From IMG/VR virus record IMGVR_UViG_3300031519_000015, positions 9,208 through 73,207 of that record: a stretch of 64,000 nt of DNA; one strand, 5' to 3'. How positions within the stretch are numbered: position 1 is the first letter of the stretch; the number at the start of each line of letters is the position of its first letter. Positions 1 through 64,000 of the stretch are shown in pieces. Both the position numbers and the translations under genes were made by a program. The notes under the pieces were generated by a model. It was given only the letters and a program-made list of their open reading frames with translations. It did not search any database and was not told where the DNA came from. This DNA is from a virus. Lineage: Duplodnaviria; Caudoviricetes.

Positions 1-2310
1 GAAACCAGTTTAGACAAAGAAATCAGAGACTTAGCAGCAAACCTTAAACCTCTAGCAGATAGTATGGTTGCTTCCGCTCAGGGTGATTTAGAAGTTGGTA
101 AGGCTATAGAAGACGGCGCTAGAAAACTTATGAAGGCTGGAGAAGTATTAGAGAGTGCTGGTAAAGCTTTGGGAGGTAGTGATGTTGGCGAGACAGCTGA
201 AGGTGGCGCTGGAGCAGGAGTCAAGTCAGCCACGGTTAAAGCACAAACAGCAAATATTAATGTTCAAAAAGTTAATTCTGGTGGCACGGGCGATTCCGGT
301 AGTGGTGGGGGTATAGCTGGATCAGTTTCTAGCATGGTAAAAAGAAGTCCTGCAACTGCTTTCCAAGCTGGTAAAATGGGATTACAAGCTGGCATACCGG
401 CGGCTACGAAGTTAAAAGCAGGATATGACATGTCTAAGATGGGCATGTCTACTAAAAACATGTCAGGTCTTACTAAGGCAGGCGGCATGTTCCAGCAGGG
501 TGGTAGCCAAGCTCAAAAATTTGGATCTAAAGTCGCTGACTTTGGTGGTGACGTTGCATCAACCGTTAAAACTAAGGCTGGTAACTTTGGCAAAGTAGCT
601 AAAATACAAGGTCAAAGGGCTGGCTTAAGAGCAGCTGACATGGCTAGCGATGCCAAAGCTGGATTTAATACTGGTGGTAAACTTAGCTACTTTGATCGTT
701 CAATGATGAGTGCGGATGATATTGCAGCGGCTGATAATGCCACATCAAATATTGGTGGTAAAATGGGATCAAGAGCAAAAGACGCTTTGGGTCGTGGTAA
801 AGATTTCGCTACTAGAGCTGCTGATAAAGTTATGGGAGCAAAAAATGCTGACAAGCTAGCATCTCGTACCAAGGGGCTGGTTGATTCAGCCAAAAACATG
901 GCTGGAAGAGCAGGAAACAGCAAAATTGTACAAGGTGGTAAAGATTTATTATCTAATGCTTATAAAGGCGGCAAAGGTTTTGTTGGAAATGTATCTCAAG
1001 GTATGAAGTATGCTAAGGTTGCTAATCAAATGGGTCCAATGGGACCAACAGACGAGTTAGCAAGAGCTGGCGTACAAAAAACAGTTGGTGGCAGGATGGG
1101 AGCAGGCGCTAAGAAGCTGATGACGAAGGGAACAGACCTAGCAACCAAATACGCTCCGGGTCTTTCAAAGGGAGTTGGTGCGGGAGGTAAGCTTCTTAGT
1201 AAAGCGCTTGGACCCGGAATGGCTGTAGCAGACTTGGCAATAGGTGCATATAAAGGAGCTACATCTGACTCTAATGTTAGAGCTGCTAAAGACGAAGAAG
1301 GCAATGTAGTTGGTCCGGGCTTGATTGCTGACAGAGCATTAGACGAGCAAAGTTCTCTTTATAAAGGAACTGCTGGAATGTTAACTGGTAGCGCTACAGT
1401 TGGTGGTTCTATTACAGGTAGTATGCTTGGTGTTCAAGAGGGTGGTACTGCTGACCAAGTAATGGCTGGTTACGAGTCGATGGGTAGAGGAGCAGCCATT
1501 GGCGCAAGTATAGGATCTTTCGTTCCGGGCGTTGGAACAGCTGTAGGAGCTGGCGTTGGAGCAATTGTTGGTGGTGGGGCAGAATTAGTGAAGAGTGGTG
1601 GTCAGCTGATGGAAGAAAGAAAAGTAGCATCTGAATCAGCTAAAAAGACAGAAAGTATGAGGACAGCCAGTGTAGATGATTCTGGACTAGACGTATTAGA
1701 AAGAAACAAGGCAAAGGAGCAGGCCAGATTACAAGATGAAATGGCTATGGCTCAATCCTCTGGAAACACTCAAGAACAAGAAAAAATACAGTCTAGACTT
1801 GCAGAAGATGAACAATCAAGAAGAAGTAAAAGAAAAGAAAATAGAAGTTACTTCTCTGCGTTTACTGATTCTATTGGCGCAACTGACACAACAGCTGACA
1901 GCGAAGAATACAAACAATATCAAAAAAGTCAACGTACAGCTGGCGCTAGTCCAGCAGCTGCTGGAGCCGTCCCATCTCAAAAGAATGTAGCGGCTACTGG
2001 TCAAGTCGCTCAGGCTGGAGCAGGAGGGGTTGGACTTGATCCAGAATTATTAAATAAATTCTCCGCATCTCTAGAGAAGTTTAATACTGATTTATCTGCT
2101 AATATAGATAGATTAGAAAATACTAAATTAGAAATTAAATTAGCTGATACAAATGTTAGTGTAAATATTAATGACGGTGGAGTACTTCAGAAACTTACAC
2201 AGTTGATGGGTGACGTTGTGAGTCAGAAGATTGAAGAGAAATTAGCTGAAACTAGACAAAACCCAGATGGTAGTAATGCTGCACCATCTTCTAGCCAGTT
2301 GTCAAACTAG
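1..2310 (+). CDS. Tail tape-measure-like protein, C-terminal part (5' end outside the window)
   Basis: Frame 1 is open from base 1 (ETSLDKEIRDLAANLKPLADSMV...). Ala/Gly/Lys-rich low-complexity sequence with Gly-zipper segments (GAAIGASIGSFVPGVGTAVGAGVGAIVGGG) and a coiled-coil C-terminus. First gene of the structural block. Confidence 0.6.
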   Translation, partial: ETSLDKEIRDLAANLKPLADSMVASAQGDLEVGKAIEDGARKLMKAGEVLESAGKALGGSDVGETAEGGAGAGVKSATVKAQTANINVQKVNSGGTGDSGSGGGIAGSVSSMVKRSPATAFQAGKMGLQAGIPAATKLKAGYDMSKMGMSTKNMSGLTKAGGMFQQGGSQAQKFGSKVADFGGDVASTVKTKAGNFGKVAKIQGQRAGLRAADMASDAKAGFNTGGKLSYFDRSMMSADDIAAADNATSNIGGKMGSRAKDALGRGKDFATRAADKVMGAKNADKLASRTKGLVDSAKNMAGRAGNSKIVQGGKDLLSNAYKGGKGFVGNVSQGMKYAKVANQMGPMGPTDELARAGVQKTVGGRMGAGAKKLMTKGTDLATKYAPGLSKGVGAGGKLLSKALGPGMAVADLAIGAYKGATSDSNVRAAKDEEGNVVGPGLIADRALDEQSSLYKGTAGMLTGSATVGGSITGSMLGVQEGGTADQVMAGYESMGRGAAIGASIGSFVPGVGTAVGAGVGAIVGGGAELVKSGGQLMEERKVASESAKKTESMRTASVDDSGLDVLERNKAKEQARLQDEMAMAQSSGNTQEQEKIQSRLAEDEQSRRSKRKENRSYFSAFTDSIGATDTTADSEEYKQYQKSQRTAGASPAAAGAVPSQKNVAATGQVAQAGAGGVGLDPELLNKFSASLEKFNTDLSANIDRLENTKLEIKLADTNVSVNINDGGVLQKLTQLMGDVVSQKIEEKLAETRQNPDGSNAAPSSSQLSN

Positions 2311-2319
2311 GAAAATAAA

Positions 2320-63683: not shown

Positions 63684-63715
63684 GATTTAACCTCTTTGGT
63701 ATTTAGTGTGGAGTT

Positions 63716-64000
63716 TTATGGGCATGATGAGCCATCATTTTCCCCGAATGGGCGTTCTGGGGTTCGTATTGAGGAACTGTATGCATCTAAGTATCTGGCT
63801 GTACCGTTAGTGATCCTGACTTCATCTAACAAGCCATGTTCCAAGCTAACCTTAGTTGTAGCACCTGCGGCGTAAGTTACTGGTGATGATTCAGTTACAG
63901 TAGTAGACCTAGTTTCGTCTATCCATAAGTAATTTACACCAGAGTTTCTTACCCACGCTACATGATGCCAACGTTCATCTACTGGTAAAGTTAAAGACAG
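63716..64000 (-). CDS. C-terminal end of a LamG/concanavalin-like tail protein (start outside the window)
   Basis: My translation: ...DERWHHVAWVRNSGVNYLWID...LLDEVRITNGTARY...SSCP-stop. Confidence 0.75.
   Translation of the reverse strand: MSLTLPVDERWHHVAWVRNSGVNYLWIDETRSTTVTESSPVTYAAGATTKVSLEHGLLDEVRITNGTARYLDAYSSSIRTPERPFGENDGSSCP

What the first reader, a model, noticed from the sequence alone, without database searches (positions are those of the whole stretch)
1..64000. Apparent total avoidance of CCWGG (EcoRII/Dcm site), enforced through Pro-Gly codon choice
Seen: I traced 39 Pro-Gly dipeptides across structural, replication and metabolic genes on both strands. All use CCG-GGN or CCC-GGN (e.g. 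CCGGG at 1156, CCCGG at 9700), whereas prolines elsewhere are mostly CCA/CCT. I saw no CCAGG or CCTGG while reading, though related words (CCGG, CCWWGG, CTAGG, GATC) are common; this was not an exhaustive count. Established: CCWGG is the EcoRII/BstNI target and the Dcm methylation site, and Vsr repairs T:G mismatches in this context. Inference: strong, long-term selection from a CCWGG-specific host restriction or methyl-directed defence. Alternatively a phage nuclease cuts CCWGG DNA, and the depletion marks self versus non-self.
Basis: partly seen in the sequence, partly recalled or inferred. Interest (0 to 1): 0.75.

Follow-up and report, generated by a model that had tools for sequence, protein, structure and literature searches.

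The report
Phage clade purged of CCWGG sites
This fragment of a large uncultured marine phage, and most of its relatives, has removed every CCWGG and about ten other restriction-enzyme target words by silent codon changes, a clean but textbook way of escaping bacterial DNA-cutting enzymes.

Summary
Observation confirmed. CCWGG occurs 0 times in the 64-kb window and in the whole 73.2-kb record. A Markov model expects about 52 in the window (58 in the record). A synonymous-codon shuffle of the record's genes gives 56 +/- 5.

The purge is clade-wide. 49 of 63 related viral contigs have no site, and three 120-136 kb relatives have 0, 0 and 1 against 70-123 expected. A few nested lineages have lost it. 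One of these carries a cytosine-5 DNA methyltransferase found in no sampled avoider.

CCWGG is not special. GDGCHC, GRCGYC, CTGCAG, GGATCC, SACGTS, GGTACC, GCATGC, CCATGG and CCCGGG are also eliminated, and relatives avoid other sets such as GCGC or CCGG.

Best reading: classical restriction-site avoidance by a probably virulent phage of about 150 kb. A host-derived DUF1559 gene points to marine Planctomycetota.

I found no phage-encoded CCWGG nuclease. The conserved Vsr-fold nuclease is also present in relatives that keep CCWGG.

Complete EcoRII-type cassettes and MvaI/BcnI-type nucleases occur in 2-3% of sampled Planctomycetota. Neither was found in 301 genomes of the probable host order, so the selecting enzyme is not identified.

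This scan already holds more than 100 CCWGG-avoidance notes on other phage DNA.

The parts
1..64000 (.). Whole window free of CCWGG. It is also free of GDGCHC, GRCGYC, CTGCAG, GGATCC, GGTACC, GCATGC, CCATGG and CCCGGG.
   Evidence: Window counts observed/expected: CCWGG 0/52, GDGCHC 0/41, GRCGYC 0/16, CTGCAG 0/9, GGATCC 0/8, CCATGG 0/10.
1156..1160 (+). Example Pro-Gly spelled CCG-GG, which gives CCGGG instead of CCWGG.
   Evidence: Position list; codon table.
9700..9704 (+). Example Pro-Gly spelled CCC-GG, which gives CCCGG instead of CCWGG.
   Evidence: Position list; codon table.
49128..50114 (-). DUF1559 prepilin-like gene of planctomycete type. It is the host clue, and it is itself CCWGG-free.
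   Evidence: Pfam SBP_bac_10 1e-40 plus N_methyl. 62-66% identity to one gene of a marine Planctomycetaceae MAG, with the next paralog at 38%. Nearest Atlas clusters are Planctomycetota. At the conserved Pro-Gly one host copy has CCT-GGA and the phage has CCC-GGC.
48520..48945 (-). Conserved 141-aa nuclease with a Vsr-like fold. It was examined as a candidate CCWGG nuclease and does not track with the avoidance.
   Evidence: PHROG homing/HNH endonuclease families at 7.6e-13 and 7.4e-12. AlphaFold pLDDT 90.6. Best PDB match is E. coli Vsr 1vsr, Foldseek E 2.8e-3, TM 0.52. Also present in the CCWGG-bearing relatives G308 (70% identity) and G309 (49%).
27167..27934 (-). Second conserved nuclease-like ORF of 255 aa with the same DUF559/Vsr-type core motif. 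Its role is unknown.
   Evidence: phrog_559 at 6.8e-10. Weak DUF559 hit at 0.0097. Shares its core motif with the 141-aa protein, hhalign E 6.7e-5. Conserved in G001, G003, G004, G310 and G311.

Best explanation
This is restriction-site avoidance. The window is part of an uncultured phage of about 150 kb that is probably virulent and probably infects marine Planctomycetota. Any new CCWGG exposes the unmethylated incoming DNA to a host Type II restriction enzyme of EcoRII, MvaI or BstNI specificity, so such mutants are lost. Over a long time every codon pair that could spell the word has been replaced by a synonym: Pro-Gly by CCS-GGN, NCC-TGG by NCT-TGG or NCA-TGG, and C-CAG-G by C-CAA-G. The same process has removed about ten other Type II-like palindromes. 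Relatives on other hosts have purged other word sets. The purge, its codon mechanism, its spread across the clade and its lineage-specific repertoire are shown. The identity of the selecting enzymes and of the host is inferred.
For: 1. CCWGG is 0 against 56.3 +/- 5.2 in a codon-preserving shuffle, with a compensating CCSGG excess. All three reading frames are purged.
2. At orthologous conserved Pro-Gly sites, relatives that tolerate the site have CCW-GGN where this genome has CCS-GGN.
3. 49 of 63 related loci have zero sites. G003 has 0 against 123 expected, G001 0 against 108, and G004 1 against 69.
4. On a DnaE tree the avoiders number 55 of 64 and include the most distant branch. The non-avoiders are nested among avoiders.
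5. Many sites are eliminated. Over 455 kb of four genomes the counts are CCWGG 1/358, GDGCHC 1/274, GRCGYC 6/116, CTGCAG 0/74, GGATCC 1/63, SACGTS 1/58, GGTACC 0/38 and GCATGC 0/36. In G003, 13 of 47 six-base palindromes are absent against 5 of 1910 non-palindromes.
6. Repertoires differ between lineages. G310 and G311 have GCGC 0/81 and 0/40. G309 is depleted in CCGG and GCGC. G308 is depleted in TCGA, CGCG, GCGC and CCGG.
7. The clear non-avoider G309 carries a C5 DNA methyltransferase (PF00145, 7e-48). None was found in G000-G005, G308 or G310-G312 (PF00145 searches), and a tblastn with the G309 protein found none in the 63 related loci or the other assembled contigs.
8. No tyrosine integrase was found in five records that are 45-83% complete. 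This fits the non-temperate profile reported for site elimination (PMC6286503).
9. CCWGG systems do exist in the candidate host phylum. EcoRII-C nucleases occur in 8 of 351 genomes, and two sit beside a methyltransferase 49-50% identical to E. coli Dcm over its full length plus a Vsr homologue. MvaI/BcnI-family nucleases occur in 9 of 351. The carrier G329 has CCWGG at 34 against 118 expected in its own DNA.
Against: No cognate enzyme has been tied to the actual host. EcoRII-C and MvaI/BcnI were not found in 301 genomes of the order that holds the closest DUF1559 donor. That MAG has no C5 methyltransferase hit. Its CCWGG is only mildly low, 176 against 248 expected, and the phage's other purged words are at expectation in it. 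The host assignment rests on one transferred gene, and the phage has 37% GC against 47-49% for the MAGs. Known CCWGG nucleases are rare in the phylum (2-3%), yet the purge is almost universal in the clade. The methyltransferase correlation is a single case and its specificity is unknown. The record is only 46% complete by CheckV, so unseen genes could matter.
Confidence: 0.75

Rival explanations
1. The phage itself makes a nuclease that cuts CCWGG in host or competitor DNA, and the absence of the site marks its own DNA as self.
For: Two conserved nuclease-like ORFs lie in the window (27167-27934 and 48520-48945). The 141-aa one has E. coli Vsr, an enzyme that acts in the CCWGG context, as its best structural match. 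An earlier unchecked note of this scan reports orphan MvaI-type nucleases in CCWGG-free phages.
Against: No MvaI/BcnI-family hit in G000-G005. A PADLOC scan of 128 ORFs of the 83%-complete relative G003 found only one small REase-like ORF, and it is private to that genome. The Vsr-fold nuclease is equally present in G308 and G309, which carry CCWGG at normal density. About ten unrelated words are eliminated, which would require many nucleases. The Vsr match is weak (E 2.8e-3, 14% identity), and the fold is shared with homing endonucleases and TnsA.
Confidence: 0.07
2. The phage avoids being methylated. A host Dcm-like enzyme would mark CCWGG, and a methyl-directed (Type IV or IIM) nuclease in the next host would then cut the DNA, so sites are lost.
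For: Methyltransferases 49-50% identical to Dcm, with Vsr beside them, exist in Planctomycetota. C5 methyltransferases occur in 47 of 301 genomes of the probable host order. The sequence data cannot separate this from direct restriction.
Against: The survey read here ties avoidance mainly to orthodox Type II sites (PMC6286503). The parallel purge of many six-base palindromes looks like orthodox Type II pressure. The one methyltransferase-bearing relative keeps its CCWGG sites, the opposite of what fear of methylation predicts.
Confidence: 0.08
3. The cause is mutational decay, not selection. Methylated CCWGG cytosines deaminate to CTWGG/CCWAG and the word erodes away.
For: CTWGG plus CCWAG is modestly in excess, 239 against 190, z 4.2.
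Against: The loss is complete rather than partial. At Pro-Gly the replacement is a synonymous W-to-S change at the third codon base, which is not a deamination product. The CCWAG excess is what the synonymous CAG-to-CAA replacement produces. No C5 methyltransferase is present in the avoiders. Words without a Dcm context are eliminated just as fully.
Confidence: 0.03
4. It is an artefact of sequencing or assembly.
For: None found.
Against: The same absence is seen in dozens of contigs from different metagenomes. It is encoded in intact open reading frames through codon choice.
Confidence: 0.01

Closest known systems
Restriction-site avoidance or elimination in non-temperate dsDNA phages (survey: Rusinov et al. 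2018, PMC6286503)
   Same: Short palindromic Type II-like words are completely removed by synonymous substitution. Several words are affected at once. No integrase or protecting methyltransferase is seen. The repertoire varies between related phages.
   Different: The host and its enzymes are unknown here. The purge is conserved across a whole deeply diverged uncultured clade, and it includes degenerate sites (GDGCHC, GRCGYC) as fully as CCWGG.
EcoRII restriction-modification and the Dcm/Vsr system of E. coli (CCWGG)
   Same: Same target word. Complete cassettes occur in Planctomycetota genomes: an EcoRII-C nuclease, a methyltransferase 49-50% identical to Dcm, and a Vsr homologue.
   Different: No such cassette was found in the phage or in the probable host order. 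The phage's Vsr-fold protein resembles Vsr only in fold.
Orphan MvaI-type nuclease in CCWGG-free phages
   Same: A CCWGG-free phage genome.
   Different: No MvaI/BcnI-family gene was found in this record or in five relatives.

Membership tests
Restriction-site avoidance in phages | Site count far below expectation (elimination, observed/expected under 0.1) | tested here: met
   0 against 56.3 +/- 5.2. 1 against 358 over four genomes.
Restriction-site avoidance in phages | Loss achieved without changing proteins (synonymous codon choice) | tested here: met
   Pro-Gly is CCS in 45 of 45 cases, and the other frames are clean. Orthologous sites are CCW in tolerant relatives.
Restriction-site avoidance in phages | The avoided word is the target of orthodox Type II enzymes, and other such words are avoided too | tested here: met
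   Palindromes are enriched among absent hexamers, 13 of 47 against 5 of 1910. That CCWGG is the EcoRII/MvaI/BstNI site is established knowledge.
Restriction-site avoidance in phages | The host encodes the cognate restriction-modification system | tested here: inconclusive
   EcoRII-C and MvaI/BcnI were found in 0 of 301 genomes of the probable host order. They were found in 8 and 9 of 351 genomes of the phylum. The host itself is not identified.
Restriction-site avoidance in phages | Non-temperate lifestyle | tested here: inconclusive
   No PF00589 integrase in five records, but the records are only 45-83% complete.
Restriction-site avoidance in phages | No alternative protection by self-methylation or base hypermodification | tested here: inconclusive
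   No C5 methyltransferase in the avoiders. The one non-avoider with enough sequence has one. Hypermodification cannot be read from sequence.
Phage with an orphan CCWGG nuclease (MvaI/BcnI type) | An MvaI_BcnI (PF15515) gene in the phage | tested here: not met
   No hit at E <= 10 in G000 and none at E <= 1 in G001-G005.
Dcm/Vsr very-short-patch repair system | A C5 methyltransferase of CCWGG specificity paired with Vsr | tested here: not met
   No PF00145 in the avoiders. The 141-aa protein matches Vsr only by fold, and its profile comparison to Vsr is not significant.

The most novel reading that the evidence does not exclude
CCWGG elimination is kept across an entire, deeply diverged phage clade, although known CCWGG nucleases were not found in 301 genomes of the probable host order and are rare in the phylum. 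An unrecognised, widespread CCWGG-directed defence in marine bacteria could therefore be the agent. Alternatively it could be a phage-versus-phage weapon, possibly involving the clade's universal Vsr-fold nuclease. Either would be a different agent from classical EcoRII or MvaI enzymes.
Probability: 0.12. Interest if true: 0.6.

Novelty: new member of a known kind. Interest (0 to 1): 0.3.

Why it matters
The avoided words are a fossil record of the restriction enzymes this uncultured phage clade has faced: CCWGG, GDGCHC, GRCGYC, CTGCAG, GGATCC, SACGTS, GGTACC, GCATGC and more. They give a concrete, testable prediction of the restriction-modification repertoire of its unknown hosts, probably marine Planctomycetota, for which I found no report of a related phage in one literature search. 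The lineages that lost the CCWGG purge are natural experiments on how fast avoidance is gained, lost or replaced by methylation. One of them carries a methyltransferase and another looks like a module swap. The kind of phenomenon is well known, and this scan has already seen it many times.

Tried and rejected
- megablast of 12 kb of the window against deposited phage genomes found no match.
- No tRNA genes are in the window.
- MvaI_BcnI (PF15515) and the C5 methyltransferase family (PF00145) gave no hits in the record or in five long relatives.
- A PADLOC scan of 128 G003 ORFs found one REase-like 117-aa ORF beside the DnaE split. It is private to G003, so it cannot explain a clade-wide trait. 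The mad2 hits are a generic domain that rings in all control genomes.
- The 141-aa and 255-aa nuclease-like ORFs gave no significant PDB sequence match, and the profile comparison to E. coli Vsr is not significant. Only the fold search points to Vsr, and weakly.
- The ORF at 26392-27156 has no informative match.
- The 184-aa methyltransferase in the non-avoider G308 is a generic class I SAM enzyme, not a recognisable DNA methyltransferase.
- The G309 methyltransferase aligns to E. coli Dcm only over the catalytic motifs and has a short target-recognition region, so its specificity cannot be assigned.
- With E. coli Dcm as query in the probable host order, hits are 29-36% identical and none is clearly of Dcm/EcoRII type.
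- The low-GC planctomycete G471 was considered as a host type, but it has no close DUF1559 homologue and normal CCWGG.
- Literature searches found no paper on this phage clade or on CCWGG avoidance in it.
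Full report
**Observation.** The window is bases 9208-73207 of a single 73,207-bp IMG/VR virus record. The record has 37% GC, no end repeats, and a CheckV completeness of 46%. CCAGG and CCTGG are both absent from the window and from the whole record. A maximal-order Markov model expects 52 sites in the window, which makes CCWGG the most depleted 5- or 6-mer. 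I then shuffled synonymous codons within each of 59 mechanically chosen ORFs (97% coding), which keeps the proteins and the codon usage. This gave 56.3 +/- 5.2 sites, never fewer than 41 in 1000 shuffles. CCSGG is in 2.6-fold excess, and GGWCC, CCGG, CCWWGG and GATC are at expectation.

The window holds 39 Pro-Gly pairs, 24 in + strand genes and 15 in - strand genes, and all are CCC or CCG. Of the 839 prolines not followed by Gly, 715 are CCA or CCT (Fisher p 2e-35). The other two frames are equally clean. No NCC codon precedes TGG or AGG, and no C-CAG-G or C-CTG-G occurs.

**What the DNA is.** The window encodes giant structural proteins (a 4112-aa protein, the C-terminal end of a 2697-aa protein, and a 1419-aa protein) and an Mtd_N tail fibre. 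It also encodes a DnaE polymerase split around a DEDDh exonuclease, DnaB, a primase, RecA and a PD-(D/E)XK nuclease. Further genes are a class II ribonucleotide reductase, dUTPase, dNMP kinase, PhoH and a long run of glycosyltransferases. No tyrosine integrase was found in this record or in four relatives. Relatives reach 136 kb at 83% estimated completeness, so the full genome is probably about 150-160 kb.

**The purge is a property of the clade.** The N-terminal half of DnaE retrieved 63 related IMG/VR loci at 50-87% identity. Forty-nine of them have no CCWGG, although each expects 3-23. I fetched three long relatives in full. G003 (135.8 kb) has 0 against 123 expected, G001 (125.9 kb) has 0 against 108, and the first 120 kb of G004 has 1 against 69.

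On a DnaE tree, 55 of 64 rows are avoiders, and they include the most distant branch. The clear non-avoiders (L023, L027, L053/L055) are nested among avoiders. The simplest reading is an old trait with at least three later losses.

At conserved Pro-Gly positions the tolerant relatives have CCW-GGN where this genome has CCS-GGN. This shows the codon switch directly.

**CCWGG is one of a suite.** Summed over G000, G001, G003 and G004 (455 kb), observed against expected counts are as follows.

| Word | Observed | Expected |
|---|---|---|
| CCWGG | 1 | 358 |
| GDGCHC | 1 | 274 |
| GRCGYC | 6 | 116 |
| CTGCAG | 0 | 74 |
| GGATCC | 1 | 63 |
| SACGTS | 1 | 58 |
| GGTACC | 0 | 38 |
| GCATGC | 0 | 36 |

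CCATGG and CCCGGG are also absent. In the window alone GDGCHC is 0 against 41 expected. The codon shuffle confirms the six-base cases. In G003, 13 of 47 six-base palindromes with an expectation of 8 or more are absent, against 5 of 1910 non-palindromes.

Other lineages of the clade have other repertoires:
- G310 has GCGC 0/81 and CCWGG 7/89 but normal GDGCHC.
- G309 has normal CCWGG (30/35) but GCGC 0/15 and CCGG 13/40.
- G308 has normal CCWGG (26/29) but is depleted in TCGA, CGCG, GCGC and CCGG.

A lineage-specific set of purged palindromes is what varying host restriction repertoires would produce. It is hard to reconcile with a single phage-intrinsic cause.

**Phage-encoded methyltransferase or nuclease.** No C5 methyltransferase and no MvaI/BcnI-type nuclease is present in G000-G005. 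A PADLOC scan of 128 ORFs of G003 gave only one small REase-like ORF, and it is private to that genome.

Two conserved ORFs of the window share a DUF559/Vsr-type core motif. The 141-aa one (48520-48945) folds with pLDDT 90.6. Its best, though weak, PDB match is E. coli Vsr. This is an intriguing coincidence, because Vsr acts in the CCWGG context. However, the gene is equally present in G308 and G309, which carry CCWGG at normal density. It therefore does not track the trait.

By contrast, the non-avoider G309 carries a 305-aa C5 DNA methyltransferase next to its ribonucleotide reductase. PF00145 searches found none in the other assembled contigs, and a tblastn with the G309 protein found none in the 63 related loci. 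Its specificity cannot be read from sequence. This is a single case that is consistent with methylation replacing avoidance, not proof of it.

**Selection or mutation.** The replacement at Pro-Gly is a synonymous W-to-S change, which is not a deamination product. The loss is total, and words without any Dcm context are lost as completely. The modest excess of CTWGG plus CCWAG is what the synonymous CAG-to-CAA replacement produces. Selection is the only reading that fits.

**Host.** The window carries a DUF1559 prepilin-like gene. Its best cellular matches are in marine Planctomycetaceae and Pirellulales MAGs at 62-66% identity, while the next paralog in the same MAG is only 38% identical. The nearest Atlas clusters are planctomycetal. 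The gene is accessory: it is present in G001 and six loci and absent from G003 and G004. That fits a recent capture from a host. This is the only host evidence, and the GC gap is large (37% against 47-49%).

**Does the candidate host group have CCWGG enzymes?** In 301 genomes of the order that holds that MAG, neither EcoRII-C nor MvaI/BcnI was found. C5 methyltransferases occur in 47 of them, but they are only 29-36% identical to Dcm.

Across the phylum, EcoRII-C nucleases occur in 8 of 351 genomes. This also serves as a positive control for the search. Two of them sit beside a methyltransferase 49-50% identical to E. coli Dcm over its whole length and beside a Vsr homologue, which makes a complete EcoRII-type cassette. 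MvaI/BcnI-family nucleases occur in 9 of 351 genomes. One carrier, G329, has CCWGG at 34 against 118 expected in its own DNA.

The candidate donor MAG shows only a mild CCWGG deficit (176 against 248), and the phage's other purged words are at expectation in it. So CCWGG restriction exists in Planctomycetota, but the enzyme acting on this phage is not identified.

**Comparison with what is known.** Rusinov et al. 2018 (PMC6286503) surveyed thousands of prokaryotic viruses. They report that complete or near-complete site elimination affects about a tenth of viral genomes, concerns orthodox Type II sites, and is typical of non-temperate dsDNA phages without other protection. This case fits that description in every testable respect except the unverified host enzyme.

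This scan already holds 123 notes with the words CCWGG, avoidance and phage in at least 105 genomes. They include cyanophages and a 146-kb marine phage. Some notes report marine phages enriched in CCWGG whose sister lineages are purged. I did not check those notes, but the lead on orphan MvaI-type nucleases was tested here and is negative for this clade.

**Verdict.** The most likely explanation (about 75%) is classical multi-site restriction avoidance in a probably virulent phage clade of marine Planctomycetota. This is a new member of a known kind. What remains open is which enzymes drive it, and why the CCWGG purge is so nearly universal in the clade when known CCWGG nucleases look rare in the candidate host group.

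Noticed in passing
window 1-64000, and G001, G003, G004: The non-palindromic hexamer CCAGTC/GACTGG is eliminated on both strands: 1/18 in G000, 0/30 in G001, 0/27 in G003 and 4/24 in G004. It is at expectation in G308-G311. This may be the footprint of a Type IIS-like or other asymmetric-site enzyme.
   Followed up: partly
G311 (contig behind L062), 1-34000 against 34001-96705: The structural module has CCWGG at 30 against 46 expected, and the replication module has 4 against 55. Both modules lack GCGC (0/12 and 0/29) and GGTACC. This looks like a module swap between relatives with different CCWGG histories rather than a mis-assembly.
   Followed up: partly
L131:1432-2346 (+), which is G309 12339-13253: A 305-aa C5 cytosine DNA methyltransferase with a very short target-recognition region lies next to the ribonucleotide reductase gene. 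It is found only in this CCWGG-tolerant relative.
   Followed up: partly
G308 (contig behind L023): This relative tolerates CCWGG but is depleted in words that contain CpG (TCGA, GCGC, CGCG, CCGG). All 13 CCWGG sites in L023, the 11.7-kb part examined, are Pro-Gly codons, as if avoiding CCCGG and CCGGG forces CCW-GGN.
   Followed up: partly
window 48520-48945 (-) and 27167-27934 (-): Two conserved nucleases share a DUF559/Vsr-type core motif. The 141-aa one is near recA, was found in 38 related loci by full-length tblastn, is 48-97% identical to them, and has Vsr as its best fold match. That is unusually stable for something PHROGs calls a homing endonuclease.
   Followed up: partly
window 26059-26391 (-): A conserved 110-aa zinc-ribbon ORF (69-87% identity in relatives) has weak, below-cut-off hits to ECs_2282 and to the Lar restriction-alleviation family.
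   Followed up: no
L107, G003 59392-59709 (+): A small REase_II-like ORF (PADLOC PDLC03494, 1.8e-9) is inserted next to the DnaE split in G003 only. It is probably a mobile endonuclease.
   Followed up: no
G471 (L150-L155): A low-GC (33%) planctomycete genome is itself depleted in GDGCHC (22/55), GRCGYC (7/20) and GGATCC (2/13). These are three of the words the phage has eliminated. It has normal CCWGG and no close DUF1559 homologue.
   Followed up: partly
window 27927-35163 and 40289-43442 (-): The window holds many glycan-related genes: two GT4 glycosyltransferases, a GT2, an RgpF-like protein, a DUF5672 protein, an FkbM methyltransferase and a PAP2 phosphatase. Their target (cell surface, virion or DNA) is unknown.
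   Followed up: no
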